64,000 nucleotides of DNA, taken from NCBI GenBank assembly GCA_045597645.1, contig JAZLKM010000027.1, positions 5,184-69,183 on the forward strand, given 5' to 3'. Positions 2,255-32,078 of this stretch are shown here, one piece after another. The translations under genes and the position numbers were made by a program. The DNA comes from Lachnospiraceae bacterium. Its GTDB lineage: Bacteria; Bacillota; Clostridia; Lachnospirales; Lachnospiraceae. The notes beneath the pieces are model-generated. The model searched no databases and had not been told where the DNA came from. It was given only the letters and a program-made list of their open reading frames with translations. The first letter of the stretch is position 1; every line of letters starts with the position of its first letter.

Positions 2255-3529
2255 TTATGCCTCACCTTTCACCGGCAACGGCGCCAATACGCTAAACAAT
2301 CCCATCACCATAACCGCCAACTGATATTTGTCATAACCATGGCCCGCATGCTCAGCGAATACAAGTAGCCACAATATTGGAACCAGCATAATCGCTGCCA
2401 ATAATATTGCTTCCAGACCTTTTCCGGTACTTTTTATGCGCTTATGCTGACATATCAGTGCCACTATCAGGTATATACAAGTCAGAACTATGAGCAGCTT
2501 ATTTATGCTATGGAAGTATCCATAAAAGTTGTACCTAAGCATCATGCCTCTATTGGTGAAAGCAGCACTCTCGCCTGTGATACGGGTGAAAAGCTGAGTC
2601 ATCACTGTACTTTCCCCTAAAAACAGCACATTGAGCAACTGCCTTAACAAGAGCTCAACCACAAGCCCCAGGCTCCAAAGAATCCCATTTCTCACAAAGC
2701 CTATAGCGTTTTCCTTAAAAGCTACGCCCTTTGCTGCGCGCATCATAATCATAAGGAGCATAGGCATGCAAAATGAATAAATCGGCATACTCCAATAGTT
2801 CAGCACATATGTGACCATTCCGATAATGAAAAATACCAGTGGCTCTCTTTTCTCAAATTTCTCATTGCCATCAAGCATCAGAACCATTATGCACAGGCCA
2901 TACATCATGATGATGTCTGTAGCATAAGCCAGACACTGAACTATAAGTGGCAACCCTGTCATGATGCACATCACTGTAAATGATATTGCCACAGGCATTC
3001 CCAGCTTCCTGTAAATCAGTACTACTGTCACTATAAGGAGTGCCAATGCCAGCCCCCAGGCTAAGAACCTAATCTGTCCAAGATTTAATCCCAACATAAT
3101 CACTCTCATAACTGAGGTAAAAAGAGAATAATATCTTGTGTATTCAAAGTATGTGGTCTGCTCACCGTCCACCACACTTCTTAGGTTATTTATATCTCCG
3201 TAATACAGTTCCTTCGCGTCCTTATCCACCGAGAATGCGTTAGTCAGTGCATTCTTGAATGGGCTTCCATACTCTCTGGTTATAGCCGCATTCACAATTA
3301 CAGTATCCGTAAAGTTGTCGAAGAAATAATTCTGCTGTTGACCTCCTAATAGGTACTCTGGATATGTACCCTCAGTTTCCAGCTGCTCCATACTTTCTCT
3401 GGCATTATCCCGCAAGCTGTCCGCAGGTATGCAAAAGCTCAGCACCGAAAATAGGTACACAAAGCAATTGATTGCTACAAATGCAATCAGCATATTCAAT
3501 ATTGTCTTTATTGCCTTCTTCTGTGTCAC
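2255..3529 (-). CDS. Polytopic membrane protein of unknown family (candidate polymerase/ligase-type glycan enzyme)
   Basis: 424 aa. It has an N-terminal TM, a ~110-aa hydrophilic loop, then about 8-9 hydrophobic spans. I recognise no MBOAT, Wzx or EpsG motifs. It sits between a PGT and GT4 genes. Confidence 0.45.
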   Translation of the reverse strand: MTQKKAIKTILNMLIAFVAINCFVYLFSVLSFCIPADSLRDNARESMEQLETEGTYPEYLLGGQQQNYFFDNFTDTVIVNAAITREYGSPFKNALTNAFSVDKDAKELYYGDINNLRSVVDGEQTTYFEYTRYYSLFTSVMRVIMLGLNLGQIRFLAWGLALALLIVTVVLIYRKLGMPVAISFTVMCIMTGLPLIVQCLAYATDIIMMYGLCIMVLMLDGNEKFEKREPLVFFIIGMVTYVLNYWSMPIYSFCMPMLLMIMMRAAKGVAFKENAIGFVRNGILWSLGLVVELLLRQLLNVLFLGESTVMTQLFTRITGESAAFTNRGMMLRYNFYGYFHSINKLLIVLTCIYLIVALICQHKRIKSTGKGLEAILLAAIMLVPILWLLVFAEHAGHGYDKYQLAVMVMGLFSVLAPLPVKGEA

Positions 3530-3580
3530 TTTTCTACCTTATTCTGCAGCCTTTGGTATGCCAATCAATATACCTACCGC

Positions 3581-4987
3581 TTAGTCGTCTTCCTTATTAA
3601 TTTCTTCTCTCATGATAGCTATCTGCTCATCTGAGAAGCCTTCCGTACTTTCCTTTTGGAAAATTACTTTTATTGTTTCAAATAGTATCTGTATATCCAG
3701 CCAAAAGCTGTAATTTACGATATACATCAGATCCATTTTCAGCTTGTCATATGCTGTTGTATTGTATCTGCCGTAGACCTGAGCATATCCGGTGAGACCA
3801 CCCTTTACTTTAAGTCTATATGAGAATTCTGGGATAAATTCAGAATATTTCTCCATATGCTCTACACGCTCTGGCCGCGGACCCACTATACTCATATCTC
3901 CCTTTAAGATATTTAACAGCTGTGGTAATTCGTCTATTCTGGTGCTCCTGATGACTCTGCCCACCTTCGTGATTCTATCGTCATCCTCACCCGCAGGTCT
4001 TGGCTTTCCATCTCTCTCTGCGTTCTCCACCATGCTACGAAACTTCAGTATAAAGAACTTCCTTCCGCCCATTGTCACGCGTTCCTGCTTGTAGAAAATA
4101 GGGCCATGATCCTCAAGCTTTATCGCTATTGCAGTCACAAGAGTGAACGGAAGTGTGACTATAAGTCCTAACACAGATAGGGCTATATCTGCAATTCTTT
4201 TTGCCAACGCCTGCCCGAAAGTTAGTCCTCCGTTTTCACACAAAATCAGTGGAGAATCGAAGAGGTTCACCTCCTGTGCTCCCCTCACCATTATGTCTGA
4301 AAGCTTTGGTGTCACGTATACTCTGATGTCATTTTTATATGCAAACTTCATCAGCTTATTCTTGCGGCTACTCTTAATGTCATTGATGATGACTGCATCA
4401 TAGCCGAACATTTCCTCCTGGATACCTACCAAATCCTCTGCTGGAAGATCGTTCCCCACATAGATGCGCTTAGTCACCTTGTACAGGTCAGCTCGCTGAT
4501 TTACCTTGAGGTCCAGATTGTTCGGATGATCTCCATACAGTTCAAGCACTCTGTAAGGTGGAACCAAAAGGCCATAGACCTTCGTCAGTATAAATGTCAG
4601 CAGCAACGTCATTACCGTGCTTATACCCCACAGCTGTGCTACCCATATGAACACTTCCTTCATTACCCAGGTATTAGCGATTACCAGCACCAGCATCGCA
4701 AATACCGCTATGTGCGCCACTGCCACCCCAAAAAACTGGCCAAGGAGGGTGTTGCTTAGCTTATGATAGCTTATGCGTAGTGCTCCGAACGCTTTCAGCG
4801 TCAGTGTGTAAATCATAAAGTACAAAAGGACTATCAAGTAGTTTCCTTTTCCAAGGAATGCCCTGTCCATAAGTCCATTAAATTTGGTAATCCAATACCA
4901 TGCAAACACCGCTGTGCTGGCCAGTCCCAGCATCAGCCCTACCATGAAAATGTATAGTTTTTGTCTCTTGTTCTTCTGCTTTGGCAT
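3581..4987 (-). CDS. Large polyprenyl-phosphate phosphoglycosyl transferase (WbaP/CpsE/EpsL-type bacterial sugar transferase)
   Basis: 468 aa. N-terminal TM bundle plus the C-terminal catalytic domain signature (GPIFYKQERV, KFRSM, RIDELPQLLNILKGDMSIVGPRPER, GLTGYAQV). Confidence 0.9.
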   Translation of the reverse strand: MPKQKNKRQKLYIFMVGLMLGLASTAVFAWYWITKFNGLMDRAFLGKGNYLIVLLYFMIYTLTLKAFGALRISYHKLSNTLLGQFFGVAVAHIAVFAMLVLVIANTWVMKEVFIWVAQLWGISTVMTLLLTFILTKVYGLLVPPYRVLELYGDHPNNLDLKVNQRADLYKVTKRIYVGNDLPAEDLVGIQEEMFGYDAVIINDIKSSRKNKLMKFAYKNDIRVYVTPKLSDIMVRGAQEVNLFDSPLILCENGGLTFGQALAKRIADIALSVLGLIVTLPFTLVTAIAIKLEDHGPIFYKQERVTMGGRKFFILKFRSMVENAERDGKPRPAGEDDDRITKVGRVIRSTRIDELPQLLNILKGDMSIVGPRPERVEHMEKYSEFIPEFSYRLKVKGGLTGYAQVYGRYNTTAYDKLKMDLMYIVNYSFWLDIQILFETIKVIFQKESTEGFSDEQIAIMREEINKEDD

Positions 4988-5955
4988 TATTTGTCGCCTG
5001 TTACTTCCCTTTTTAGTTTTCCTGCAATGAACTCCTCTGTCCTTTGCATAGAAGTATATGTAGCACCTCCAATATGAGGTGTAATAATCAGATTGTGGTC
5101 AGCCTGAAGTTCTATGAGCTCTGTGAGCTTGTTGTCGCCATGAGCCTCATCCTTAAGCACGTCTATGGCAGCTCCCTTCAACGTGTTAGTGCGAAGTGCC
5201 ATTATCAGGGCCTCCTCGCTCACCAGCTCGCCTCTTGCCGCATTGATAAAATACTTCCCATCCATGCAAGCGAACTCATAGGCACCAATCATATTTTCAT
5301 TCTCTGGCGTATAGTTCACACACAATATGACCATGTCAGCTATATCTATCAGATCTGTCAGCGTATTTCGCTTATCGTATTTAGTCTCATATTCAGGATA
5401 GCTCTCGGTGTCGTAGTAATGTACATTCGCACCAAATGCGTCAAAATATCCTGCAATTATCTTGCCGACTCTGCCCAGACCTATGATGCCTATATTTAGA
5501 CCATATATCTCGAATCCCTTGTATAAATCTCTGTCCCACACCTGGCTATTCTGATTCAAAAATGCATGACTATAATTTCTTAAAAGTCCTAGTGCCAGCC
5601 CAAATACATGCTCCGGTGTAGCTCTGATGCTCGATAAAAATTCATACTCGCCCTTGAGCGATACCACCTGCACCCCCGGCCTTGTTACATTTATGTGATT
5701 GAGTCCTGTGGTGGGACTGCATATGTATTTTAGATCCGGTGCATCCTTTATCAGCTCGTCATCTATGTAATGTGCGAGCCTTATAAATACCGCTGTCTTG
5801 TCCTTCAGAAAGTCAGCTATTTTCTGACGTAGCTCGTCCCCTTGGGCACCTGCTCCGTCAAATAGTTCCACCTGTCCCAGCTGTCCTATTTCGTTTATCG
5901 CCTTTGGTGAAAAATCCTCTGGCTCTAAAATTCCTGTTTTAAAATTTTCTGACAT
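4987..5955 (-). CDS. D-isomer-specific 2-hydroxyacid dehydrogenase family, NAD-binding
   Basis: 322 aa. Rossmann motif GIIGLGRVGK plus the catalytic-region patterns ARGELV and ITPHIGGAT. Its stop overlaps the PGT start by 1 nt. Confidence 0.85.
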   Translation of the reverse strand: MSENFKTGILEPEDFSPKAINEIGQLGQVELFDGAGAQGDELRQKIADFLKDKTAVFIRLAHYIDDELIKDAPDLKYICSPTTGLNHINVTRPGVQVVSLKGEYEFLSSIRATPEHVFGLALGLLRNYSHAFLNQNSQVWDRDLYKGFEIYGLNIGIIGLGRVGKIIAGYFDAFGANVHYYDTESYPEYETKYDKRNTLTDLIDIADMVILCVNYTPENENMIGAYEFACMDGKYFINAARGELVSEEALIMALRTNTLKGAAIDVLKDEAHGDNKLTELIELQADHNLIITPHIGGATYTSMQRTEEFIAGKLKREVTGDK

Positions 5956-5961
5956 AGATTC

Positions 5962-6663
5962 CTACTTCTGCTCTCTGGCGATTTTCCATCTAAGCAGCTC
6001 AACATCATCCATAGTATCAAGGTTCACTGAGTTCTCTCTGCTCATCACATACATAGCTGGAACATCGTCAAATACCTTCTTCTCTGCCAACATGTAGTCA
6101 GAATCAGTGATATATATTGCACCATTTCTCACGTACCAAGGTTCCAGTTCCTGCCTGCGCATACCCTTATTGTGGCCTTCATGGAGTGGAACTGCCTTGT
6201 CTCCATCCTTATGATATGCCACCAAGTCACAGATATATTCTTCCTTGTAGCAGGTGATGAGCGACTTTGCCGGGCTGTTTCTATATATCTCGAGCGCTGC
6301 TCCTATATCCTCTGGTGTGCGAAGCGGTGTCGTGGGCTGTAGTAGCACTATGGTGTCATACACGATACCCTGCTCCTTGTAGAATTCATAGGCATGTATC
6401 ATTACATCGACGCTCTTGGAGGTGTCTGCTGCCAGATATTCCGGTCTCATAAATGGCACTTCTGCCCCATATTTTCTGGATACTTCAGCTATCTCTTCAT
6501 CGTCAGTTGACACAATGACTTTATCTACATAGCCTTTCTCCATTGCTCCAAGCCCTGCTTCTATGCTCCAGGCTATAAGCGGACGTCCTGCAATGTCCAG
6601 AATATTTTTTCTCGGTATTCCTTTTGAGCCTCCACGGGCTGGTATCAATGCTAAAACTGGCAT
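5962..6663 (-). CDS. neuA: Acylneuraminate (nonulosonate) cytidylyltransferase, CMP-NulO synthetase
   Basis: 233 aa with the N-terminal signature ALIPARGGSKGIPRKNI. Adjacent to NeuC and NeuB homologs. Confidence 0.85.
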   Translation of the reverse strand: MPVLALIPARGGSKGIPRKNILDIAGRPLIAWSIEAGLGAMEKGYVDKVIVSTDDEEIAEVSRKYGAEVPFMRPEYLAADTSKSVDVMIHAYEFYKEQGIVYDTIVLLQPTTPLRTPEDIGAALEIYRNSPAKSLITCYKEEYICDLVAYHKDGDKAVPLHEGHNKGMRRQELEPWYVRNGAIYITDSDYMLAEKKVFDDVPAMYVMSRENSVNLDTMDDVELLRWKIAREQK

Positions 6664-6714
6664 ATAGTCTCTCTGTTCTAGTCAAGGCTCGCCCTGACAA
6701 TTCTTTATTCGAAA

Positions 6715-7872
6715 TTAGTACTGCAAAATCTTGTTTATCGGCACATCACCCAGCTCAGCTATGATTTTTGCAATGCGTTCTCCAGCTTTGCCATCACCGT
6801 AGAGTGTGTCACATTCAGGTCTTTGGGATGCGCATATTTTCTCATAGGCTGCTGTGATATCCTCAGCTTTATATGCACAGTCAATTACGTTCTTGCCTCG
6901 CTGACGACCTATCTGTCTGTCGCCGATGTTGATGGCTGGTACTCCCAGATATGAGCATTCTCTTATAGCTACAGATGAGTTACCTACCACGCACTGGCTT
7001 CCCATGAGGAGTACCAAAAAATCCTCAGGGTCCATATTTTTGAAGAAATATATATTGCTTTTCTTGTTATGCTCACGATGTACTCTGATTGCCTTTGCCA
7101 CTCCGTCAGAGCCTGCATCTACATTCGGCCAAAACCAATATACCTGCTTGCCGAATTTCTCCACAGTCTCCAAGAGTTCCTGGGTCTGCTCTCTGGCATG
7201 CTCTATATCCGTAGTCAGAGGATGCTGCTGTACTACTATGTAGTCTGCTCTATCCTCCAGCAGATATCCTACTCCATTATATTTTGATGGCGGGTCAAAT
7301 TTCAGCTTTTCATAATTGCTTCTTACAGACTCTGCTATATCAATAGATGGACATCCGGTTATATATACTCGGCTTGGGTCCTCACCCATCTTGATAACTC
7401 TCTCTCTTGCCTTCTCATTGGCCACGAGATGTATATCCGCAAGTTTCGTTACTGCATGGCGTACCTTTTCATCTATATTTCCAGTGACCTCTCCGCCCTG
7501 TATATGCACCAGAGGGATATTCATGTAAGAAGCTGTAATAGCTGTAGCCATAGTCTCGAATCTGTCAGCTATTGTCACCACTATATCCGGCTTAATATTG
7601 TCAAATATAGTACTAAGCTCCAATATTCCTAGCCCTGTGGTCTTGGCAGTCACATTAATATTTTCTCCGCTGACTACGTTATAGGCCTCTGCTGCCACCT
7701 CAAAGCCATCTGCTCTGATCTGGTTTACCACCTTGCCATAGTTATCAAGCACTGCCGATGCTGCTGCCACTATCTGCAGGTTTACATCCTTATACTTTTT
7801 TAATTCAAACAGCGCGCTTCTAATGCGTGAATAGCTAGGTCTTGCTGTTATGACTACGCATACATTTTTCAT
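6715..7872 (-). CDS. neuC: UDP-N-acetylglucosamine 2-epimerase (hydrolysing), NeuC/LegG family
   Basis: 385 aa. Epimerase_2 pattern (VVITARPSY, ADRFE, HIQGGEVTGNIDE, GNSS, NIGDRQ.GR). Its start overlaps the neuB stop by 1 nt. Confidence 0.85.
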   Translation of the reverse strand: MKNVCVVITARPSYSRIRSALFELKKYKDVNLQIVAAASAVLDNYGKVVNQIRADGFEVAAEAYNVVSGENINVTAKTTGLGILELSTIFDNIKPDIVVTIADRFETMATAITASYMNIPLVHIQGGEVTGNIDEKVRHAVTKLADIHLVANEKARERVIKMGEDPSRVYITGCPSIDIAESVRSNYEKLKFDPPSKYNGVGYLLEDRADYIVVQQHPLTTDIEHAREQTQELLETVEKFGKQVYWFWPNVDAGSDGVAKAIRVHREHNKKSNIYFFKNMDPEDFLVLLMGSQCVVGNSSVAIRECSYLGVPAINIGDRQIGRQRGKNVIDCAYKAEDITAAYEKICASQRPECDTLYGDGKAGERIAKIIAELGDVPINKILQY

Positions 7873-8891
7873 TACTCTAAATCCTCCAGTCTGACAGGCT
7901 CGTCTATTGACACTGCCTTGGTCAGAACCCTGCCGATTAGCTCGGGCTTTTTATTCTCAGGAATTCCTATGTTTGGCTTTTTAGCAGCCAAATCCGATGC
8001 CACCAATACATGTCCCGGCTCCAGATTTCTATTGTAATAGATGCTCTTTGAGAACATCTGCTTTAGATTCTCCCTATCCACATCTCTTTTTGAGAAGTCA
8101 GTACGGGCATTTTTCATAGCTGTTATAGCCTTAGCACCATCCACGATACGCTTCAAATCATCCAGTGATACTGACGCCTTTACATCCGGTCCAAACATAT
8201 ATGGGCTCATGGTGACATGCACCTCGGCTACCATAGCACCCAAAGTCATAGCTGCAAGGCAAGGATATATAGTGGCTGAATGATCTGAAATTCCTATCAC
8301 GCAATCCTCATACCTGCTCTTCATCTGAGTTATAAGTCCTATATCTATCTGCTCTGGCAGCGACGGATATGCTGTAACACATTGGAAAATAACCGTCTCG
8401 TTTCCGTTCTTTCTTACCTTATAGACATGCCTGTCCAGATCCTCCCATGTAGATAATCCTGATGAGAGGAGAATTGGCTTACCTGTAGCTATAGCTGCAT
8501 CCAGAAGTGCCTCGTTAAATATCTCTCCTGCGCCAAATTTCATAGCTGGCACGCCTATTTTATCCAAAAGCTCTAAGGCCTTCATGGAAAATGGAGAGCT
8601 AAGGAAATCTATGCCTCTGTCGTCTGCATGCTTTTTAAGCCCTGCCCACTGCTCATCAGTAAATTCCATTCGCTCCCAGTAGTCATACCTAGTCTGATCC
8701 TCGAAACTAAATGGCACTCTGAATGGCTCGAGCGGTGTGCTCTCCTGTGACGCTATATGTGTCTGAAACTTAACGGCTGACACTCCCTGATCTGCCACTG
8801 CATCAATAAATGCATGGGCTTGACCCAACGAACCATCATGGTTCTGGGATATCTCGGCGATTACATATGGCTTTTCCAATTCTCTAAACAT
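7872..8891 (-). CDS. neuB: N-acetylneuraminate synthase family (NeuB/LegI-type nonulosonate synthase) with C-terminal SAF domain
   Basis: Motifs YVIAEISQNHDGS, KFQTH and ISDHS, plus a C-terminal SAF-like tail. The track ORF starts at 8924, but that ATG has no Shine-Dalgarno (SD). The in-frame ATG at 8889-8891 is preceded by AGGAGAAG with 8-nt spacing. Confidence 0.85.
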   Translation of the reverse strand: MFRELEKPYVIAEISQNHDGSLGQAHAFIDAVADQGVSAVKFQTHIASQESTPLEPFRVPFSFEDQTRYDYWERMEFTDEQWAGLKKHADDRGIDFLSSPFSMKALELLDKIGVPAMKFGAGEIFNEALLDAAIATGKPILLSSGLSTWEDLDRHVYKVRKNGNETVIFQCVTAYPSLPEQIDIGLITQMKSRYEDCVIGISDHSATIYPCLAAMTLGAMVAEVHVTMSPYMFGPDVKASVSLDDLKRIVDGAKAITAMKNARTDFSKRDVDRENLKQMFSKSIYYNRNLEPGHVLVASDLAAKKPNIGIPENKKPELIGRVLTKAVSIDEPVRLEDLE

Positions 8892-8971
8892 AAGCTCTTC
8901 TCCTGTTGATGCTATGTCCGCCATTCTATGGCATTTCTGCCATCAAAACCTTGCTCATTTCACAGCCCAGC

Positions 8972-10330
8972 TTACTTTATCGGTGATAGGCAGTAAATAT
9001 TATGCTTTAGTTCCTTAATGTCTACTTGCACTGGCTCTCCTATCAAATCACATGCACGGCTGATAAGGTTCGACATTTTCTTTTTTGATATATAATCAGT
9101 ATTCTTTCCGATGTTTTTCTTCTTAAGTGCTCTAATCCTGCCATGGATGATGGTCCACTGCTCATGAAGTGTACGAGGACACTTTATCTGGACTGCACCT
9201 TCCTTGTACTCATTCTCATCAAAGGCATCAGCTATGATGCTGGCAAAAAGCTCATCGCTGTGGAGAAGATTGTATTTATATCTATCCTCCTTCTCCTTAG
9301 TTGCAAAGCCTTCCCAGCCCTTTTCTCCATTCAGATAAGCAAGTGCCATATCTGCAAGCTCCTGTGGCGACTTCGCTACGTCGCTAAGGCTCCTTATAAA
9401 ATCCGAAAACATCAGCTTATATGGCTCGAACTCATCTGGCTCATACTGTATGCTGATTCTTCCACCGCAGTATGCTTCGTAGGCTGTAGAGCATCCGCTG
9501 TGAATTAATAGGGCTGCCCCCGCAATCCAGCCGTTGGACTCTCCTTCTCTTATTACGTGTACATTCTCATATGGCGCAAGGTCTTCAATAAACCTGTTTA
9601 TAAACATCGTATCACCCGGATGAGGTCGTACGATTATCTGCCTGTCAACAGATTTTGCGAGGTACTGTATTGCCTCTATAAACGTCTCATAATATCTGAG
9701 CTTAAATTCTCTTCTATCCTTGTAGAAGTCCACAGTGTAGCTGGTGACTCCATCGCCATTTACTCTGGTATAGTCCTCACCTCGCCTTGATTTTCCGAAG
9801 CTTGAGCTTACCAGTATATAGTCGCCATACTTTTCCTTGTATCGCTTGGCATCCTCATTGTAAAAAGCCATTCCGTTTCTCAGAAGGTCCATTCTCGGAT
9901 TACCTGCCACTATGCATTTAGGTAGTAACTCAGGCATTACCTCCTCTATGACATCCCGGTGCATATCTCCCCACAGAAACATCTTCTCAAAGTTAGCTGT
10001 GGTGTCCTTGCCGAGTCTTGTCTCTAGGTAAAGCTGGGCTGTTGTAAGTATCAGTCCTTCCTCATCCAGGGCATACACCTTGCAGCCACTGTCTGCGATT
10101 CGCTTATGCTGTGGATACTTAGCGTTGGTAAAGTCCTTATCCAGAAACACTCCTGTGCTGAGGTTTCCTGAAAGCCTGCTTCTGACACAGGTATCCTCGC
10201 CCAGCACCACTGTGTAGCCGCGTCTTACCAGTTCAGTGCCCAACAGTACCTTGGCACTCAGCTCCCTGGCCATGCTTTCCACTGGTATATAGGCTACTTT
10301 ATCAAGCTTGCTATCTGTGTTTTGGGGCAT
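8972..10330 (-). CDS. Orphan surface-carbohydrate biosynthesis protein; candidate nonulosonate (sialyl) transferase
   Basis: 452 aa, soluble-looking, immediately upstream of neuB in the operon. It contains DEEG (res 88-91) and RPHPGD (res 235-240). These resemble the D/E-D/E-G and HP motifs of GT-B bacterial sialyltransferases. The motifs are short, so the functional call is tentative. Confidence 0.4.
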   Translation of the reverse strand: MPQNTDSKLDKVAYIPVESMARELSAKVLLGTELVRRGYTVVLGEDTCVRSRLSGNLSTGVFLDKDFTNAKYPQHKRIADSGCKVYALDEEGLILTTAQLYLETRLGKDTTANFEKMFLWGDMHRDVIEEVMPELLPKCIVAGNPRMDLLRNGMAFYNEDAKRYKEKYGDYILVSSSFGKSRRGEDYTRVNGDGVTSYTVDFYKDRREFKLRYYETFIEAIQYLAKSVDRQIIVRPHPGDTMFINRFIEDLAPYENVHVIREGESNGWIAGAALLIHSGCSTAYEAYCGGRISIQYEPDEFEPYKLMFSDFIRSLSDVAKSPQELADMALAYLNGEKGWEGFATKEKEDRYKYNLLHSDELFASIIADAFDENEYKEGAVQIKCPRTLHEQWTIIHGRIRALKKKNIGKNTDYISKKKMSNLISRACDLIGEPVQVDIKELKHNIYCLSPIK

Positions 10331-12082
10331 CTATCTCTCCCTCTCAATCTTGCCATTTTCCACTCTGTACACCATGTCGCAGCCCTCTATTGTGGTAAGT
10401 CTGTGAGCTATGATCACGAGTGTCTTCTTGCCATGAAGTGCGTTGATTCCCTCCATGATGGCTGCCTCTGTCTCGTTGTCAAGTGAGGCTGTAGCCTCAT
10501 CAAAGATAAGTATTTCAGGATTTGTGTAGAGTGCTCTTGCTATACCGATTCTCTGTCTCTGTCCTCCTGAAAGTCTGATACCTCTCTCTCCTATCTTGGT
10601 ATAGATACCGTCTGGCGAAGCATCTACAAAATCTAGTAGCTGAGCCTCTGCCAACGCATGTCTTATCTTCTCCTCATCGAAGTCACCCTTATCCACACCG
10701 TATGCCACGTTGGCTGCTATTGTGTCATCAATAAGATATATTGACTGTGGTATGTAGCTAAGCTTCTCGAGCCACTGTCCGTAGTGGGCTCTTATGTCAG
10801 TTCCATCGCAGAGTACTGCACCCTTCTGTGAGTGTAGCAAGCCCAAAAGTATATCTATGGCTGTGGTCTTGCCCGCTCCTGATGGTCCTACTACTCCTAT
10901 GGATGAGCCAAATGGTATTTTCATATTGGCGCCATCTAATACATATTTCTCCACATTTGGATAGTGGAAAGATATGCCGGACAGCTCGCAGCAATCATCA
11001 AAAGTCAGATCCGGCACTCCGTCATAGTCTGCCGGCATCTCATATGTAACCCCAGTGTACTCGCTCTCATCTATAAGCAGCAGATTCCTAAGGACTGCAT
11101 CAATATTGAACTCATAGTAAGGAATGCTGTTAATTACGTTGGTCATTCTGTTAATGCATGGCAAAATACGCACTGCTGCCACCATAAATGCCGATAGCGC
11201 AGGTATCATTGCAACCATACTAAGTCCATTATTTGAAAGTACTAAGAGCATGAGAAGTACTGCGCTTATTGTCACTGCCTCTATGATAAGATGAGGTGCA
11301 TACTTAAGCACAGTGAACCCTCTCTCGTATTTTGCTTTAAGCGCAGAATGTTTTACATAATGCTCTACAAAAAAATCCTCTTTTCGGTTGACCTTTGTGT
11401 CTTTAATCCCGCCTACTGCCTGTAGCAGCCACTTGTTTATCTTTTCATTCTCTACTCGTGACTCGTGACCTAAATACTGTATTTTTTTACGCACGGCTTT
11501 CACGATTATAAGCATCTCTATCAGCAGAACGACAGAAACTATACCTGCCATGAGCGGGTTAATCCAAAATACGACAATGGCAAGTGCGATACATACTATT
11601 CCATCCGATGCAAAATCCATGAAATTGCTAAGCAACGTATATGAGCGATTTACATCTGTTCCAATAAGCTGTATTACTTCGCCTGTTGAGGTGTTTAGAT
11701 AATACTCGTACGGACGATGTATAAATATTTCCATCAACTGCTGCTGAAGCTCTATCTGATTTGTTGTCAAAAATTTCTGCAGTATATGATACTCCAGCAT
11801 CTGATATGCATCCTTGACTATGAAAATCGTGATCAAGGCCACAAGCATAACATTTATAAACTGCTGGCTACTGTTTATGTGGAGTATATTGCAGGCGATT
11901 ATGGCATATTCATTAGTGCAGTAGAACTGGTCATTAGTGACTGCCGTCACAAGTGGCACTATCATTCCTACGCCGGCTATGTCCATGAGCGCAGCAATCA
12001 GCATTAAAAACATAACGCCTACTGCCTGCTTCTTCTGCTTTTCAGTTAGAAAACGTAATAGCTTTTTTACTACTCTTTTCAT
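10331..12082 (-). CDS. ABC half-transporter (fused TMD-NBD, MsbA/PglK/Wzk-type exporter)
   Basis: 583 aa. N-terminal 6-TM type-I exporter domain. The NBD carries Walker A GPSGAGKTT, signature LSGGQRQRIGIARAL, Walker B ILIFDEATASLD and H-loop IIAHR. Confidence 0.9.
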   Translation of the reverse strand: MKRVVKKLLRFLTEKQKKQAVGVMFLMLIAALMDIAGVGMIVPLVTAVTNDQFYCTNEYAIIACNILHINSSQQFINVMLVALITIFIVKDAYQMLEYHILQKFLTTNQIELQQQLMEIFIHRPYEYYLNTSTGEVIQLIGTDVNRSYTLLSNFMDFASDGIVCIALAIVVFWINPLMAGIVSVVLLIEMLIIVKAVRKKIQYLGHESRVENEKINKWLLQAVGGIKDTKVNRKEDFFVEHYVKHSALKAKYERGFTVLKYAPHLIIEAVTISAVLLMLLVLSNNGLSMVAMIPALSAFMVAAVRILPCINRMTNVINSIPYYEFNIDAVLRNLLLIDESEYTGVTYEMPADYDGVPDLTFDDCCELSGISFHYPNVEKYVLDGANMKIPFGSSIGVVGPSGAGKTTAIDILLGLLHSQKGAVLCDGTDIRAHYGQWLEKLSYIPQSIYLIDDTIAANVAYGVDKGDFDEEKIRHALAEAQLLDFVDASPDGIYTKIGERGIRLSGGQRQRIGIARALYTNPEILIFDEATASLDNETEAAIMEGINALHGKKTLVIIAHRLTTIEGCDMVYRVENGKIERER

Positions 12083-12090
12083 TCTATTAA

Positions 12091-13044
12091 TTATCCCCAG
12101 TTGGTATGATCGTTTTTACCAAGCAAAGCTTTTATATAGTAGTCTACTCTGCTTATTACTCCCTTGATGCCTTTTTCCTTTAGGTTGCGCCAAAATCCTC
12201 TCCAGTGCGTCTGAGCTTTGGTCTCTCTCTTAAGTGGCTTGTCGTTGTAAGGCGATGCTTTGTACGCCTCGTACCACTCATCTCCGCAAATGATATAGTC
12301 GTATTTCCATGGCTTGCCGCCTGTATCATAGTGGATTATCGTGGCATCCGCTGTGAGTGCTTCCTTGCTGTCATATTCTGTGCCATACAGGCCGTTTAGC
12401 ATTTCCACAGTGTAATTATTCTTCTGTATCCCCAGAAACTTATTAGGCGTACAGTTATACTTAAATGAGATATTCCCTATGCGGTCTCCCAGCACCATAT
12501 TAAATGTCTGCTGGTCCATTGAACCTCTGTCGCCCAGAGATTTCCTAACCTCCATCAATTGTGGTGCCAGCTTCTCATCTCTCATAGCCTTGGCATTGAA
12601 TAGCAGTATTCCTGCATTTATCAGCTTCCTGTCTTCAAAAAGCATATCAAGGCTAGGTACTCCTGCCAGGACATTGTCGCCAAGCTCAGTCTCGTACAGC
12701 TCAGTCAAGTCCCCTCTTACACAGATATCTCCATCCAGGTACACCAGCTTGTCATACTGCGGTATGAGATCACAGATATTAAACTTAAGACAGCATGCAA
12801 TCGGTATATGCGCCAGCTGCTTTATATCTCTGTACATGTCAAGAGACGTCTCAATTATATGTAGATTACTGTCATTGCCTTCCACTGACTTTTCCAGCTC
12901 TCTTCTGGCATTATCAGAGCATTCTGCCATTACCACGAAAATGTCATATTCTGTGGTGGTCGCCTTATTCCTCAGTAGCGTCCATATGGCCACACCTGTC
13001 TGCATGACAAAATTTTCATCTGTTATAAATACTACAGGTATCAT
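12091..13044 (-). CDS. Glycosyltransferase family 8
   Basis: IPVVFITDENF..., then YLDGDICVRGD (DxD) and other GT8/LgtC-like patterns. I prefer the ATG at 13042-13044, which forms an ATGA overlap with the upstream stop. The track start at 13059 is the alternative. Confidence 0.8.
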   Translation of the reverse strand: MIPVVFITDENFVMQTGVAIWTLLRNKATTTEYDIFVVMAECSDNARRELEKSVEGNDSNLHIIETSLDMYRDIKQLAHIPIACCLKFNICDLIPQYDKLVYLDGDICVRGDLTELYETELGDNVLAGVPSLDMLFEDRKLINAGILLFNAKAMRDEKLAPQLMEVRKSLGDRGSMDQQTFNMVLGDRIGNISFKYNCTPNKFLGIQKNNYTVEMLNGLYGTEYDSKEALTADATIIHYDTGGKPWKYDYIICGDEWYEAYKASPYNDKPLKRETKAQTHWRGFWRNLKEKGIKGVISRVDYYIKALLGKNDHTNWG

Positions 13045-14057
13045 CCCTTGAATTTCCATTCTCTCTTCTGCTTATGCTTATTTCGAGCAGTCCAAATCTT
13101 GTACCAGATGCCTGGGTGTTTATATCCCAATGTTACAAGCTGCCTCTTGCGTTTACCCACACTGCCAGCTTCAATATCTAACACCCAGCCTTTATATTGC
13201 TCAAACAACTCTGCGTAACCTTGATGCGACTTGCTCACTTCATCCGGGAGCTCAGCTCTAATTCTGGTCATTATATTGCAGGCTGCATATTTTGCCAGAA
13301 GGACATTCTTCTCGTCCTTGTCAGCGTAAAATTCTATCTGCTCCATGCGCGCTGTCAGTGAGTCGAACAGTACTCTTGCCCTCTGAGCGTCATCATGAGT
13401 GATACTATCACCGCGTTTAGACTGATAGAAATATGTCTCTGCATATACCAGTCCCACTTTTTCTGCTGCCCAGTACAGCTTGTAAGTGGTGGCCATATCT
13501 TCGCAGAGTCTTCCAGTTGGAAAACCAATTCCATCAAATACACTGCGCTTATACAGCTTTGTCTGTACCACGGTTGCTCCACTGCCATACCTATTTTCCA
13601 GCTGGCATCTGGCGAATTCCCGTCCGCTCATCACTACCACTTCCTGGTCCTCAGGTACGTACTCCAGTATGGTGGTATCATCCATGAAGGAATATACCAG
13701 GCACTCCGCTATATCCAGCTGATTTTCGCTCATGGCATTGTAAAGTATCTCTATATGCCTTTGATGCACCAGGTCGTCACTGTCCACATATGTAATGAGC
13801 CCCCCCGTAGTCTTGTTAAGCCCTACGTTTCTGGCATTTGCCAGATCGCACATCTCCTCATATACAATTCTAATGCGCTCATCTCTTGAAGCCCATTCCT
13901 CAGCCAATGCCTGGCTATTATCCTTTGAAGGCTGCACTACCAGCAGTATCTCCAGGTTGTCATAGGTCTGGTTTACGATGCTGTTTAGGCATCTGTCCAG
14001 ATATTTTTCTACGTTATAGACCGGTACAACTACCGATATCAGCGGTCTATCTGTCAT
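13041..14057 (-). CDS. Glycosyltransferase family 2
   Basis: 338 aa with N-terminal ISVVVPVYNVEKYLDRCLNSIVNQTY and a DSDD motif. It overlaps the upstream GT2 by 4 nt. Confidence 0.88.
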   Translation of the reverse strand: MTDRPLISVVVPVYNVEKYLDRCLNSIVNQTYDNLEILLVVQPSKDNSQALAEEWASRDERIRIVYEEMCDLANARNVGLNKTTGGLITYVDSDDLVHQRHIEILYNAMSENQLDIAECLVYSFMDDTTILEYVPEDQEVVVMSGREFARCQLENRYGSGATVVQTKLYKRSVFDGIGFPTGRLCEDMATTYKLYWAAEKVGLVYAETYFYQSKRGDSITHDDAQRARVLFDSLTARMEQIEFYADKDEKNVLLAKYAACNIMTRIRAELPDEVSKSHQGYAELFEQYKGWVLDIEAGSVGKRKRQLVTLGYKHPGIWYKIWTARNKHKQKREWKFKG

Positions 14058-15025
14058 TTCATTCCTCTTATCTTTTCATACATCTGCTCACTTATCGTAA
14101 ATAGATGTAGCTTTATCTTGGATTTGATTCCAAGGGGCAGCCCCTTCAATTCATTTCCAAGGACTTCTCTGTACCTATGGCGCAGCTCATTAACATCTAC
14201 CAGTGGCTCATCTTCCTTTTTGCCTAGCAATATAAGATGTGCCAGATTACTCTCGTATCTGTCCCAGGCAATAGCACAAAGCTCTTTGTCGCCACGTGAC
14301 TTGTAGAACTCTGCCTGCTCCTTAAATGCCTCCAGATGGTCATTGATTTTAGACACATATCTCTGGTCAGCCATTATGCTACCCTCTCGCTGTCTGTAGT
14401 AACACAGCTGAGCCGGTAGATATGCCACTTTCTCCAAATCATAGAGCACCAGATGTGTGGTGGCTGCATCCTCAAACACCCTGCCCTCCGGATATCTGAC
14501 CCTGGCAAACTGCTCTGCTCTATACAGCTTGTTCCAAGCTATTACGCTAAGACCTGTCATAAGGTCTCCTTGGAGCAAAAGGACCTGCCTTCCTGTATAA
14601 TAACTAGGTTCATCTCCCAGCCCTTCTACCTCTTTCATATTTTCCAGGGTAGCATTTTCATCCACAAACGTCCTGCCGCAGAACACCAAGTCTGCACTGC
14701 TCTCATCCATAGTATTCATGAGTAGCTCCAGCGCCCTTGGATGCAGAGCATCATCTCCATCGAGGAAAAACAAATACTCACCCTTCGCATTCTCAATTCC
14801 AGTATTTCTGGCTGCTGAAAGGCCTCCATTTTCCCGATGAATCACTCGAATCCTGCTATCGTATGATGCATATGCATCACTTAATCTGCCGCTGTCATCA
14901 GTGCTGCCATCGTCCACCAGAATTATCTCGTAGTCGCTATAAGTCTGTCCTAATACAGAGTCCACGCAGCACTGGAGATATTTTTCTATGTTGTATATAG
15001 GTATGATTACACTAATCATTGGCAT
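14054..15025 (-). CDS. Glycosyltransferase family 2
   Basis: 323 aa with ISVIIPIYNIEKYLQCCVDSVLGQTYSDYEIILVDDGSTDDS and LDGDD. Confidence 0.9.
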   Translation of the reverse strand: MPMISVIIPIYNIEKYLQCCVDSVLGQTYSDYEIILVDDGSTDDSGRLSDAYASYDSRIRVIHRENGGLSAARNTGIENAKGEYLFFLDGDDALHPRALELLMNTMDESSADLVFCGRTFVDENATLENMKEVEGLGDEPSYYTGRQVLLLQGDLMTGLSVIAWNKLYRAEQFARVRYPEGRVFEDAATTHLVLYDLEKVAYLPAQLCYYRQREGSIMADQRYVSKINDHLEAFKEQAEFYKSRGDKELCAIAWDRYESNLAHLILLGKKEDEPLVDVNELRHRYREVLGNELKGLPLGIKSKIKLHLFTISEQMYEKIRGMK

Positions 15026-15038
15026 TCCCGGTATCTTG

Positions 15039-16004
15039 CTATTTTGACAGCTCTATGTATCTCTCACTCTTGGGAGGGTAGTCATTGCAATCAAGTCTGG
15101 GCAATAGCATCGCGTCCTCCTGCCCTATGATTGCTACCCTCGGCTCCACAGTCACTCCCAGCTTCGCTCCTATTGACCTGCAATACTCACAAGTGCCCTC
15201 GTTATAACCGCCGTAGGGATAGTTCATTACCCACGCGTTTCTATCTATGAACTCATCTATCGCATCAAGTCCCTTGTCCACATCCCTGCGCATATCCTCA
15301 TCGTTAAGGCTGGACAGCCAGTAATGGCTGTAGCCATGGCAGCCTATGAACATGCCGTCTGCCTTCATGAGTCGAAGCTGATCTCTGTTTAGGTACAATT
15401 CATTCGCAAATATTTTCTGCGGCACACCGACGTACTGATCAAACAGCTCATTGGTTATTATGTCTCGCAGCCTCTCCGGCACACCCTTTTGCAATATTCT
15501 CTTCACAAAGATTGTGTCAGGACCATCGAATTTGCCCGCTATGGCATACTGCTCATATAGCTCTGCCGCCGTAGGAATATCAAATTCAGCCCCCCTATAG
15601 TAGTCCAGCTTTTCCTTTACTGTGGCCACAAGCTTTGATATCTCTCCTGATGCCAGCACGAAGTGTATCTTGTTGACCCCCAGCAGCTCTCTCTCCTCTA
15701 ACACATTGCCTGGTACGAAAAATGAACCCTGCATACCGTGCTCTTTTAGCACTGGAAAAGCCGCTGAATAATGATCTATATATCCGTCATCGAAGGTAAG
15801 CAATAATGCTTTTTCAGGTAGCAGCTCTCGCTCTGGGTGCTCCTGAGCCTCAATCACCTGCTCCATTGTTACCACATTGAAGTTGGCGTCAAAGAACTCT
15901 ATCTGTTTTTTGAAGAGCTCATAGTCGAGCCCCTTTATTTCAGGGTATCTGCTGCCCTTCAAATCTCTTACAAAGTGATATACAGCTATCTGTAACTTCT
16001 GCAA
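15039..16004 (-). CDS. Polysaccharide deacetylase (NodB homology domain), predicted cytoplasmic
   Basis: 321 aa with LLTFDDGYIDHY (NodB motif 1) and a later CHGYSH. I see no signal peptide or TM segment. Confidence 0.8.
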   Translation of the reverse strand: MQKLQIAVYHFVRDLKGSRYPEIKGLDYELFKKQIEFFDANFNVVTMEQVIEAQEHPERELLPEKALLLTFDDGYIDHYSAAFPVLKEHGMQGSFFVPGNVLEERELLGVNKIHFVLASGEISKLVATVKEKLDYYRGAEFDIPTAAELYEQYAIAGKFDGPDTIFVKRILQKGVPERLRDIITNELFDQYVGVPQKIFANELYLNRDQLRLMKADGMFIGCHGYSHYWLSSLNDEDMRRDVDKGLDAIDEFIDRNAWVMNYPYGGYNEGTCEYCRSIGAKLGVTVEPRVAIIGQEDAMLLPRLDCNDYPPKSERYIELSK

Positions 16005-16031
16005 TTTATATACCTCTCTAGCTAGGTCCCA

Positions 16032-17138: not shown

Positions 17139-17368
17139 TATTCCTCTATAAGTGACTCCATAAGTGCGATTATTTTGTCCTTATTTCCAAAATTATCTGC
17201 TATTACCAGGGATGCATCGATCTCGATTCCGAATTCCTCCTCCAGGCTGTATACAATGTCAATCAGTCCGAAGCTGTCGATTATGCCGTCCTCAATCATG
17301 TTGTCGCCGTCATAGTCGATAATCTCATCGTTAGCATCCTCAAGTATTGCCAGTATTCTCTCTTCCAT
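17138..17368 (-). CDS. Acyl/peptidyl carrier protein, DltC-like (D-alanyl carrier protein type)
   Basis: 76 aa, acidic. The phosphopantetheine Ser sits in IIDSFGLIDIV, the DSFG context typical of DltC. A good SD (GAGGAGA) lies 5 nt upstream. Confidence 0.8.
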   Translation of the reverse strand: MEERILAILEDANDEIIDYDGDNMIEDGIIDSFGLIDIVYSLEEEFGIEIDASLVIADNFGNKDKIIALMESLIEE

Positions 17369-17444
17369 AGCGTCTCCTCATTTATGCGGTTATAGTCCTA
17401 GCACCGCCCAATTTCTATTTTGCTTATAGCTATCAACTTATCAG

Positions 17445-18305: not shown

Positions 18306-18313
18306 ACTATTCC

Positions 18314-19831: not shown

Positions 19832-19918
19832 TCTATCTCCCTATGCCTTTTGCAATAAAAAACGCTAGTCTTTCTGCAAATTGGCAATAATTATCCATAT
19901 TGCATAGTTAACTAACGT

Positions 19919-19947
19919 ATTTTATCAAATTTAGAGGTGATATGCAA
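19919..19947 (-). promoter_or_regulatory. Sigma-70-type promoter candidate for the 19831->2 operon
   Basis: On the minus strand: TTGCAT (19947-19942), a 17-nt spacer, then TAAAAT (19924-19919). This gives a ~80-nt leader with GGGAG 7 nt before the ATG at 19831. Confidence 0.5.
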
Positions 19948-32077: not shown

Positions 32078-32078
32078 A

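What the first reader, a model, noticed from the sequence alone, without database searches (positions are those of the whole stretch)
8972..10330. Orphan 452-aa protein beside neuB carries the two short motifs of GT-B bacterial sialyltransferases
The operon makes a CMP-nonulosonate (NeuB, NeuC, NeuA at 5962-8891), but no recognisable sialyltransferase family member is present. This soluble-looking protein lies immediately upstream of neuB. It contains DEEG (residues 88-91, in YALDEEGL) and HP (residues 237-238, in IVRPHPGD), in the same order and at broadly similar spacing as the D/E-D/E-G and HP motifs described for GT38/GT52/GT80 bacterial sialyltransferases. It may therefore be a divergent or new nonulosonate transferase family. 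Both motifs are short and could occur by chance.
Basis: partly seen in the sequence, partly recalled or inferred. Interest (0 to 1): 0.6.

Follow-up and report, generated by a model that had tools for sequence, protein, structure and literature searches.

The report
Candidate nonulosonic-acid transferase, TIGR04396 family
This gene encodes a two-lobed (GT-B) sugar-transferase-type enzyme from a large, catalogued but biochemically untested family that nearly always sits beside genes for CMP-activated sialic-acid-like sugars, so it most likely attaches that sugar to a surface glycan and is a new member of a known family, not an orphan.

Summary
The 452-aa ORF at 8972-10330 (-) is real. The protein is not an orphan. 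It scores 241.8 bits on NCBIfam TIGR04396, 'surface carbohydrate biosynthesis protein' (cut-off 125), and is a distant homolog (E 2e-17) of the Tannerella forsythia BFO_1060 family, whose knock-outs lose pseudaminic or legionaminic acid.

- The AlphaFold model (pLDDT 88, pTM 0.89) is a GT-B fold.
- E90-E91-G92 and R-x-H-P are near-invariant in 155 family representatives. RxHP matches the published CMP-binding (K/R)XHP motif.
- Family members lie within about 6-10 kb of NeuB and/or CMP-ulosonate synthetase genes in 9 of 11 metagenomic loci. The same holds in 10 of 11 genomes of a Desulfobacterota sample.

The genome has two nonulosonate pathways and two TIGR04396 paralogs. No GT38, GT42, GT52, GT80, Maf or KpsS-type hit was found.

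Best reading (about 0.75): a cytoplasmic CMP-nonulosonate glycosyltransferase that acts on a lipid-linked glycan before export by the abutting PglK-type ABC transporter. No activity has been shown.

This scan has noted the same family in nonulosonate loci of other genomes. Verdict: new member of a known kind, moderate interest.

The parts
8972..10330 (-). 452-aa TIGR04396-family GT-B protein (P0001), candidate CMP-nonulosonate glycosyltransferase
   Evidence: ORF found. TIGR04396 scores 241.8 bits against a cut-off of 125. AlphaFold2 gives pLDDT 88.3 and pTM 0.89, with two Rossmann-like lobes. All top Foldseek hits are GT-B enzymes.
10055..10066 (-). D89-E90-E91-G92, the acidic motif directly after beta-strand 84-88 of the N-terminal lobe; candidate catalytic or acceptor-contacting Glu
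   Evidence: These bases translate to DEEG. Of 155 representatives, E90 is kept in 152, E91 in 155 and G92 in 141.
9617..9628 (-). R235-P236-H237-P238, an RxHP motif directly after the first beta-strand (231-235) of the C-terminal lobe; candidate CMP (cytosine and phosphate) binding site
   Evidence: These bases translate to RPHP. Each residue is kept in >=152 of 155 representatives. R, H and P are kept (RPHP or RFHP) even in distant BFO_1060-like relatives. The motif definition is in PMC12887879.
10331..12082 (-). PglK/MsbA-type ABC half-transporter; its TAG stop abuts the ATG of P0001
   Evidence: Family hits. The junction reads TAGATG. The ABC protein of the syntenic locus L015, which lies next to two family copies, is 57% identical.
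7872..8924 (-). NeuB-family nonulosonate synthase (set A), 47 nt downstream of P0001
   Evidence: PF03102 plus SAF domain. The best solved relative is N. meningitidis NeuB at 165 bits, above PseI at 125 bits.
6715..7872 (-). NeuC-type hydrolysing 2-epimerase (set A)
   Evidence: TIGR03568 scores 358.5 bits against a cut-off of 235.9. The best solved relative is the human GNE epimerase domain at 233.7 bits, above LegG at 163 bits.
5962..6663 (-). CMP-nonulosonate synthetase (CTP_transf_3), which would make the presumed donor
   Evidence: PF02348. PseF-like at 158.5 bits, below that family's cut-off.
3581..4987 (-). Polyprenyl-phosphate sugar-phosphate transferase (Bac_transf) in the same gene string; would supply the lipid-linked acceptor
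   Evidence: PF02397 at E 2e-66.

Best explanation
P0001 is a soluble or peripheral cytoplasmic GT-B glycosyltransferase of the TIGR04396 family. It takes a CMP-activated nonulosonic acid as donor. The most likely donor is the product of the adjacent NeuC/NeuB/CMP-synthetase set, which looks Neu5Ac-type and may be further N-acylated. The enzyme transfers the sugar to an undecaprenyl-linked oligosaccharide built by the neighbouring GT2, GT8 and GT4 enzymes, before the abutting PglK-type ABC transporter flips the glycan.

In this reading the C-terminal lobe binds CMP through R235 (cytosine), P238 (stacking) and H237 (phosphate or leaving group). The invariant E91 (with E90), on the cleft edge of the N-terminal lobe, acts as base or nucleophile, or positions the acceptor.

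Shown here: family membership, the GT-B fold prediction, motif conservation and genomic linkage. Inferred: the donor class, the acceptor, the residue roles and the stereochemical outcome (inverting or retaining is unknown).
For: 1. Family. TIGR04396 scores 241.8 bits against a cut-off of 125. The protein also shows significant but sub-threshold homology to the BFO_1060 family (63 bits, E 2.3e-17). Intermediate sequences score on both models, for example L010 at 142.7 and 102.3 bits. Knock-outs of BFO_1060-family genes in T. forsythia lose the terminal Pse or Leg derivative (PMC5420450).

2. Fold. The AlphaFold2 model has pLDDT 88.3 and pTM 0.89. Foldseek against the PDB returns only GT-B enzymes in the top 50, at probability 1.0. 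They include TagF, the highest TMq among the top 50 at 0.53, which is a CMP-releasing enzyme.

3. Motifs. RxHP and EEG are near-invariant in 155 representatives. RxHP persists in distant relatives. (K/R)XHP is the published cytosine/CMP-binding motif of sialyltransferases and of the retaining Kdo transferases GT99 and GT107. The D/E-D/E-G and HP motifs are needed for activity and CMP-Neu5Ac binding in NmB-polyST and PmST1. The Glu-to-His spacing here is 146 aa, against 125 in NmB-polyST and 170 in PmST1.

4. Linkage. Of 11 metagenomic or genomic loci of homologs, 8 have NeuB and 8 have CTP_transf_3 within 10 kb. Nine have one or both. In four loci the CMP-synthetase gene is immediately upstream. 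In the window's own phylum, family-like hits in G349, G128, G300 and G115 lie 4-6 kb from a strong NeuB hit. In a 301-genome sample of the Desulfofustis phylum, 10 genomes pass the cut-off. All 11 tested carriers have NeuB, and 10 of the 11 have a family copy <=6.2 kb from it.

5. Own genome. It holds two nonulosonate sets and two TIGR04396 paralogs. No GT38, GT42, GT52, GT80, Maf or Capsule_synth hit was found.

6. Operon context. The start codon abuts the stop of the PglK-like ABC gene, and the locus is syntenic with L015.
Against: - No TIGR04396 member has been assayed, and no solved structure is detectable by sequence.
- The top Foldseek hits are UDP-GlcNAc 2-epimerases and GT4 enzymes at TM about 0.45-0.53. 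No sialyltransferase is in the top 50.
- There is no Pfam match to sialyltransferase families.
- The D/E-D/E-G triplet is not kept in the BFO_1060-like relatives; only one Glu is.
- Precedent for caution: B. subtilis SpsB is TagB-like, carries DEG and HP motifs and lies next to CMP-Leg genes, yet was not required for Leg transfer (PMC7439481).
- One homolog (P0008) and the genome's second paralog (contig C49) have no nonulosonate genes within 10 kb.
- Model coordinates could not be inspected, so cleft geometry is inferred from secondary-structure positions only.
Confidence: 0.75

Rival explanations
1. It is a TagB/TagF-like phosphotransferase. It would transfer glycerol- or ribitol-phosphate, or another CDP-activated group, onto the glycan. 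The RxHP motif would bind the CMP part of a CDP-alcohol rather than a CMP-sugar.
For: TagF gives the highest TMq of the Foldseek hits, 0.52-0.53. Nine of 55 family members give weak Glyphos_transf hits, the best at 1.5e-5. The Tannerella relatives were first recognised through a TagB-type domain.
Against: P0001 itself has no Glyphos_transf hit even at E<=1. None of the window ORFs scanned matched a CDP-glycerol or CDP-ribitol synthesis family. The conserved neighbours are CTP_transf_3 and NeuB, not TagD or TarI.
Confidence: 0.07
2. It is a GT-B-fold enzyme that is not a transferase. For example, it could be a nucleotide-sugar epimerase or hydrolase acting within the nonulosonate pathway.
For: The best Foldseek hits are UDP-GlcNAc 2-epimerases, at E about 1e-8. 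Seven of 55 members give weak Epimerase_2 hits. The G-N-P-R-x-D linker motif resembles those of Epimerase_2, MurG and LpxB-type proteins; this last point is from my own knowledge.
Against: Each nonulosonate set already has its own NeuC-type epimerase. RxHP is a CMP-binding signature, whereas pathway epimerases act on UDP- or GDP-sugars. The family occurs next to chemically different pathways: Kdn-like, Pse-like, NeuC-type and Kdo-like. That fits a shared CMP-donor step better than a pathway-specific epimerisation. Tandem copies (L015, L022, G565) are typical of transferases.
Confidence: 0.08
3. It is a glycosyltransferase, but not for the neighbouring nonulosonate. It might use CMP-Kdo or another donor, while a different enzyme of the locus adds the nonulosonate, as turned out to be the case for B. 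subtilis SpsB.
For: The SpsB precedent. One family member sits beside KdsA-like, DHDPS and two CTP_transf_3 genes without NeuB. The second paralog lies in a UDP-galactopyranose-mutase locus without nonulosonate genes. Several other unassigned GT-like ORFs are in the operon.
Against: Linkage to NeuB within a few kb is very frequent and often direct. The genome has no other recognisable CMP-ulosonate transferase family. The count of two paralogs matches the two nonulosonate sets.
Confidence: 0.1

Closest known systems
NCBIfam TIGR04396 'surface carbohydrate biosynthesis protein'
   Same: P0001 is a full-length member: 241.8 bits against a cut-off of 125, covering residues 14-417. NCBI and JGI give homologs the same name.
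   Different: The family name states no activity. No paper in the searched library mentions the accession, and no solved structure is detectable by sequence.
BFO_1060 family glycosyltransferases (NF046086): Tannerella forsythia Tanf_01245 (Pse-derivative transferase) and TFUB4_00887 (Leg-derivative transferase), Tomek et al. 2017, PMC5420450
   Same: Homologous at E 2.3e-17 over residues 75-350. Bridging sequences score on both models. Similar size of about 445 aa, no transmembrane segment, position next to the CMP-nonulosonate genes, and an HP motif. R-x-H-P, W-G, R146, D148, W268 and E285 are kept across both groups.
   Different: P0001 is below the family cut-off (63 against 200 bits), with about 17-19% identity to BFO_1060-like sequences. 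The EEG triplet of TIGR04396 is not kept in those relatives. The D/E-D/E-G that Tomek et al. marked lies in the C-terminal half of their proteins, not at the N-lobe position seen here. The Tannerella acceptor is a protein-O-glycan ManNAcA; the acceptor here is unknown.
GT-B bacterial sialyltransferases GT38 (NmB-polyST), GT52 (Lst) and GT80 (PmST1)
   Same: GT-B fold. An acidic-acidic-Gly motif in the N-lobe and a (K/R)xHP motif in the C-lobe. The Glu-to-His spacing of 146 aa lies between the 125 and 170 aa of NmB-polyST and PmST1. The donor is presumed to be CMP-linked.
   Different: No sequence-model match to PF07388, PF07922 or PF11477. No sialyltransferase is among the top 50 structural hits. 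P0001 is therefore not a member of these families; at most it is analogous or very distantly related.
Retaining CMP-ulosonate transferases: GT99 (WbbB), GT107 (KpsC/KpsS), GT118 (KpsS1 pseudaminyltransferase) and GT140 (KrkA)
   Same: They use CMP-activated ulosonic acids and share the (K/R)XHP CMP-binding motif on a GT-B-derived scaffold. Five of 55 family members give weak Capsule_synth hits.
   Different: P0001 itself has no Capsule_synth match. These enzymes have heavily modified GT-B folds and an Asp nucleophile plus Glu base. None is in the top 50 structural hits. Whether P0001 retains or inverts is unknown.
TagB/TagF CDP-glycerol glycerophosphotransferases (PF04464), and B. subtilis SpsB
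   Same: Best TM-score among the structural hits. CMP is the leaving group. Family members give weak profile hits.
   Different: A different donor class is expected from the gene neighbours. SpsB, despite similar motifs and context, was not needed for Leg transfer.

Membership tests
NCBIfam TIGR04396 (surface carbohydrate biosynthesis protein) | Whole-protein score at or above the curated cut-off of 125 bits, over most of the profile | tested here: met
   241.8 bits, E 1.5e-71, residues 14-417 against profile positions 2-410 of 427. Confirmed on genomic DNA.
NCBIfam TIGR04396 (surface carbohydrate biosynthesis protein) | Family-invariant residues present: R22, E90/E91, W120-G121, G143-N-P-R146-x-D148, R235-P-H-P238, W268, H277, C280, E285 | tested here: met
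   All are present in P0001. Each is conserved in 141-155 of 155 representatives.
BFO_1060 family glycosyltransferase (NF046086; T. forsythia Pse/Leg transferases) | Score at or above the curated cut-off of 200 bits | tested here: not met
   63.2 bits, E 2.3e-17. P0001 is a homolog, not a member.
BFO_1060 family glycosyltransferase (NF046086; T. forsythia Pse/Leg transferases) | Loss of the terminal nonulosonate from the glycan when the gene is deleted | not testable with these tools
   Shown only for Tanf_01245 and TFUB4_00887 (PMC5420450).
GT-B bacterial sialyltransferases (GT38, GT52, GT80) | Match to the family sequence models PF07388, PF07922 or PF11477 | tested here: not met
   No Pfam hit for P0001 at E<=0.01 or E<=1. 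No genomic hit. For PF07922 and PF11477 the control genomes also gave no hit, so those two negatives are unvalidated.
GT-B bacterial sialyltransferases (GT38, GT52, GT80) | GT-B fold of two Rossmann-like lobes | tested here: met
   The AlphaFold2 model has pLDDT 88.3 and pTM 0.89. Foldseek gives 201 PDB matches at E<=1e-3, and the top 50 are all GT-B enzymes.
GT-B bacterial sialyltransferases (GT38, GT52, GT80) | Conserved D/E-D/E-G motif, then HP motif 125-170 residues later (Freiberger 2007) | tested here: met
   E90-E91-G92 and H237-P238 are 146 aa apart and conserved in the family.
GT-B bacterial sialyltransferases (GT38, GT52, GT80) | CMP-sialic-acid-dependent transfer activity | not testable with these tools
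   Needs an enzyme assay.
CMP-ulosonate transferases in general (GT29/38/42/52/80, GT99/107) | (K/R)-X-H-P cytosine/CMP-binding motif | tested here: met
   R235-P236-H237-P238 is kept in >=152 of 155 representatives and in distant relatives. The motif is defined in PMC12887879. Contact with CMP could not be tested.
TagB/TagF glycerophosphotransferases (PF04464) | Match to PF04464, and a CDP-glycerol or CDP-ribitol supply gene in the locus | tested here: not met
   P0001 has no hit. Only 9 of 55 relatives hit weakly. None of the window ORFs scanned matched a CDP-alditol synthesis family.
UDP-GlcNAc 2-epimerase (PF02350) | Match to PF02350 or TIGR00236/TIGR03568 | tested here: not met
   No hit for P0001. 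The similarity is at fold level only, at 12-14% identity.

The most novel reading that the evidence does not exclude
TIGR04396 would be a very large family (more than 6,000 clusters at 50% identity) that forms, on its own or together with BFO_1060, a distinct and not yet biochemically defined glycosyltransferase family. Its common property would be use of CMP-activated ulosonic acids (Neu-, Leg-, Pse-, Kdn- and 8-carbon types). It would supply a missing nonulosonate transferase for many bacteria that lack the classical sialyltransferase families. Within it, P0001 would be a true Neu5Ac-type sialyltransferase of this new family.
Probability: 0.5. Interest if true: 0.6.

Novelty: new member of a known kind. 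Interest (0 to 1): 0.42.

Why it matters
Enzymes that make CMP-nonulosonates are easy to recognise. [quoted passage not shown]

This work shows that a catalogued family carries a near-invariant CMP-binding RxHP motif, has a GT-B fold and is tightly linked to NeuB and CMP-synthetase genes across phyla. That gives a concrete, soluble and easily expressed candidate for biochemical definition. Such enzymes would be useful for annotating surface-glycan loci and for chemoenzymatic synthesis of sialic-acid-like glycosides.

For this particular window the result is ordinary in kind. It is one more member of that family.

Tried and rejected
- Sequence search of the PDB with the family profile found nothing. 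The best hit was E 0.49 to an NADH kinase.
Contexts were taken instead from the look-up of encoding contigs and the genome search.
- tblastn against plasmids gave no match.
- The promoter and terminator scan of 3000-21000 was at chance level: 35 promoter-like sites against 35.1 expected, and 11 terminator-like sites against 10.4. It says nothing about operon limits.
- I looked for GT38 homologs in the window's phylum to build a comparison profile. None was found in 151 genomes, so no profile-profile comparison with true sialyltransferases was made.
- A 19-sequence tree, labelled by the type of neighbouring ulosonate pathway, did not resolve donor-specific clades. It showed only that P0001, the C49 paralog and the two L015 copies form one supported clade (97/97).
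- The short gene after the family pair in L015 is not NeuB. That truncated contig is uninformative on linkage.
- The 'orphan' label was rejected.
Full report
**Observation.** The window has an ATG-initiated ORF of 452 codons at 8972-10330 on the minus strand. It lies in a long run of same-strand glycan genes. Its ATG directly follows the TAG stop of a PglK/MsbA-type ABC half-transporter gene at 10331-12082; the junction reads TAGATG. Forty-seven bases downstream begins a NeuB-family synthase (7872-8924). After it come a NeuC-type hydrolysing 2-epimerase (6715-7872), a CMP-sugar synthetase of the CTP_transf_3 family (5962-6663), a 2-hydroxyacid dehydrogenase (4987-5955) and a polyprenyl-phosphate sugar-phosphate transferase (3581-4987). 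The protein has no hydrophobic segment; the highest 19-residue Kyte-Doolittle mean is 0.85. The two motifs are present. RPHP is at 235-238 (window 9617-9628).

**Are the motifs more than chance?** In this single sequence, hardly. In 20,000 shuffles of the protein, [DE][DE]G occurs in 50%, HP in 27% and both in 13%. Both occur in the right order with 100-250 residues between them in 3.8%. Conservation is what makes them meaningful. A profile search of 1.84 billion cluster representatives found 6,625 relatives at E<=1e-3 and 2,938 at E<=1e-30. I aligned 155 full-length representatives, which are at most 50% identical to one another. E90 is kept in 152, E91 in all 155, G92 in 141, R235 in 155, P236 in 154, H237 in 153 and P238 in 152. 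Alignments A1, A2 and A3 show the same. The other near-invariant positions are R22, W120-G121, G143-N-P-R146-x-D148, W268, H277, C280-T-T282 and E285. According to the structure model, all of them lie just after beta-strands, on the edges where active-site residues of Rossmann-type lobes sit.

**Not an orphan.** Pfam has no model for the protein. NCBIfam does. TIGR04396, 'surface carbohydrate biosynthesis protein', scores 241.8 bits against a curated cut-off of 125 and covers residues 14-417. NCBI and JGI give homologs that name. There is a second, sub-threshold but significant hit to NF046086, 'BFO_1060 family glycosyltransferase' (63.2 bits, E 2.3e-17, cut-off 200). BFO_1060 is the strain 92A2 ortholog of Tannerella forsythia Tanf_01245 and TFUB4_00887. 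Knock-outs of those genes lose the terminal pseudaminic- or legionaminic-acid derivative of the protein O-glycan, and complementation restores it. The authors had already pointed to D/E-D/E-G and HP motifs and to a TagB/GT-B domain (PMC5420450). The two NCBIfam families are connected by intermediates. For example, a protein in genome G128 scores 142.7 bits on BFO_1060 and 102.3 bits on TIGR04396. In an alignment that includes such relatives, R-x-H-P, W-G, R146, D148, W268 and E285 stay invariant. Only one Glu of the EEG triplet persists.

**Fold.** AlphaFold2 with a 46-sequence alignment gave a confident model: mean pLDDT 88.3 and pTM 0.89. It has two alpha/beta lobes and a helical, beta-hairpin C-terminal extension. 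Foldseek against the PDB returned 201 matches at E<=1e-3. The top 50 are all GT-B proteins: UDP-GlcNAc 2-epimerases, GT4 enzymes (BshA, HepE), the teichoic-acid polymerase TagF (highest TMq, 0.53) and a capsule polymerase. No sialyltransferase is in the top 50, and a profile search of PDB sequences found nothing. Individual family members give only weak Pfam hits, to DUF354, Glyphos_transf, Epimerase_2, LpxB and Capsule_synth. The fold criterion is met, but the protein is not a member of GT38, GT52 or GT80.

**What the motifs mean.** A 2026 structural paper states that a (K/R)XHP motif is conserved in sialyltransferases (GT29, 38, 42, 52, 80) and in the retaining Kdo transferases GT99 and GT107. 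The Lys or Arg hydrogen-bonds the cytosine and the Pro packs on the ring (PMC12887879). Freiberger et al. showed that the His-Pro pair affects the Km for CMP-Neu5Ac in the meningococcal polysialyltransferase, and that the Glu and Gly of its D/E-D/E-G motif are essential. In PmST1, H311 contacts the CMP phosphate and D141 contacts the acceptor (PMC2169525). The family's invariant R-P-H-P follows the first strand of the C-lobe. Its E-E-G follows a strand of the N-lobe. The spacing of 146 residues lies between the 125 and 170 of those two enzymes. I infer that the donor carries CMP.

**Genomic association.** I looked up 11 diverse homologs on their contigs. Eight loci have a NeuB-family gene within 10 kb, and eight have a CTP_transf_3 gene. 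Nine have one or both. In L016, L017, L018 and L024 the CMP-synthetase gene ends immediately before the family gene. The accompanying pathways differ:
- NeuB-cupin fusions with a HAD phosphatase, which I read as Kdn-like from my own knowledge of the Bacteroides Kdn pathway.
- NeuC-type sets like the one in this window (L019, L022).
- Sets with DegT, WbqC and formyltransferase genes (L021, L023).
- One set with KdsA-like, DHDPS-like and two CTP_transf_3 genes but no NeuB (L020).

One homolog (P0008) has no glycan genes nearby, and the L015 contig is truncated.

In a 401-genome sample of the window's own phylum the family is rare: 2 genomes over the cut-off and 7 at E<=1e-10. NeuB, by contrast, is common, in 199 of 401. 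Yet the hits in G349, G128, G300 and G115 lie 5.8, 4.1, 5.6 and 5.7 kb from a strong NeuB hit on the same contig.

In a 301-genome sample of the phylum of Desulfofustis limnaeus, 10 genomes pass the cut-off. All 11 carriers I tested have NeuB. In 10 of the 11, a family copy lies 0.15-6.2 kb from NeuB. The copies without a nearby NeuB are mostly on short contigs. These genomes have a few NeuB genes in 2-6 Mb, so such proximity is expected for roughly 1% of random genes. That figure is my estimate.

**The window's genome.** The assembly is 2.46 Mb and 84% complete. It has two NeuB/NeuC/CMP-synthetase sets, both in this window: 5962-8924 and 29896-32762. It also has two TIGR04396 paralogs. The second is on contig C49, is 31% identical, carries DEEG and RPHP, and lies in a UDP-galactopyranose-mutase locus. 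No match to GT52, GT42, GT80, GT38, Maf or Capsule_synth models was found. For three of these models the control genomes also gave no hit, so those negatives are weak.

The set next to P0001 looks Neu5Ac-like. Its NeuC is closer to the human GNE epimerase domain (233.7 bits) than to the diNAcBac 2-epimerase LegG (163 bits). Its NeuB is closer to meningococcal NeuB (165 bits) than to PseI (125 bits). The second set's NeuC is closer to LegG (209 against 181 bits), and PglD/PglC-type genes lie further along. This assignment of donors is suggestive only.

**Mechanism proposed.** P0001 binds the CMP-nonulosonate made by the three downstream genes in its C-lobe, through RxHP. It transfers the sugar to a lipid-linked oligosaccharide assembled on the cytoplasmic face by the operon's initiating transferase and its GT2, GT8 and GT4 enzymes. 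The adjacent ABC transporter then exports the finished glycan. The closest homolog's locus (L015) keeps the same ABC gene (57% identity) and the AMP-binding gene (40% identity) next to two tandem family copies. Family, fold, conservation and linkage are shown here. Donor, acceptor, residue roles and stereochemistry are inferred. I put this reading at about 0.75.

**Rivals.** Three alternatives remain. One is a TagF-like CDP-alcohol phosphotransferase (0.07). The second is a non-transferase GT-B enzyme such as an epimerase or hydrolase (0.08). The third is a transferase for a donor other than the neighbouring nonulosonate (0.10). The last has a real precedent: B. subtilis SpsB is TagB-like, carries DEG and HP motifs and lies next to CMP-Leg genes, yet was not required for Leg transfer (PMC7439481).

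**Novelty.** The family is catalogued, and its sister family has genetic evidence for exactly the proposed role, with the motifs already noted in 2017. In the searched literature I found no assay or structure for TIGR04396. Earlier notes of this scan describe the same family beside nonulosonate genes in several other genomes. I treat those notes as leads that agree with my own tests, not as evidence. The gene is therefore a new member of a known, still untested kind.

Noticed in passing
window 5962-8924 and 29896-32762: The two nonulosonate core sets are not duplicates; NeuB1 and NeuB2 are 31% identical. Set A's NeuC resembles the human GNE epimerase domain most closely, which suggests a Neu5Ac type. 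Set B's NeuC resembles the diNAcBac 2-epimerase LegG most closely, which suggests a legionaminic type. PglD- and PglC-like genes lie at 49207-50503.
   Followed up: partly
G000 contig C49:121249-122457 (L003 10130-11470, minus strand): A second TIGR04396 paralog of 446 aa, 31% identical to P0001, with DEEG and RPHP. It lies in a locus with two UDP-galactopyranose-mutase-like genes and several unassigned ORFs, and no nonulosonate genes within 10 kb. It may serve the second nonulosonate set in the window.
   Followed up: partly
window 4987-5955; L019 16551-17510: A D-2-hydroxyacid dehydrogenase sits directly beside the NeuC/NeuB pair, both here and in an unrelated metagenomic locus. In that locus a TPP enzyme and a GFO_IDH_MocA oxidoreductase are also present. 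This hints at a conserved, undescribed modification of the nonulosonate or its acyl group.
   Followed up: no
L016, L017, L018, L024 (Desulfobacterota-type loci): A recurring module: GFO_IDH_MocA oxidoreductase, NeuB fused to a cupin domain, HAD phosphatase, CTP_transf_3 and a TIGR04396 protein, flanked by several sulfotransferases. It looks like a Kdn-type pathway feeding a possibly sulfated glycan.
   Followed up: no
L020 2676-11413: A family member lies next to a KdsA-like DAHP_synth_1 gene, a DHDPS-family gene, a B12-binding radical SAM gene and two CTP_transf_3 genes, with no NeuB. This may be an unusual 8-carbon or modified ulosonic acid pathway.
   Followed up: no
L015 8091-10741; L022 8571-11374; G565:C132:2645-5616: Tandem pairs of TIGR04396 genes occur in several loci. 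This suggests successive additions of ulosonic acids, or different linkages.
   Followed up: partly
Sample of the window's phylum (401 genomes): NeuB-family genes are found in about half of the sampled genomes (199 of 401 at E<=1e-10). TIGR04396 passes its cut-off in only 2. Most nonulosonate producers of this phylum must therefore use other transferases, and this genome's copies may have been acquired horizontally.
   Followed up: no
window 8972-9175 (residues about 385-452 of P0001): The C-terminal extension beyond the GT-B core is modelled as a basic helix (388-403, sequence HEQWTIIHGRIRALKKK), a second helix and a beta-hairpin. E418 is a family-conserved position, although P0001 has K there. 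It may be a membrane-association or oligomerisation element.
   Followed up: no
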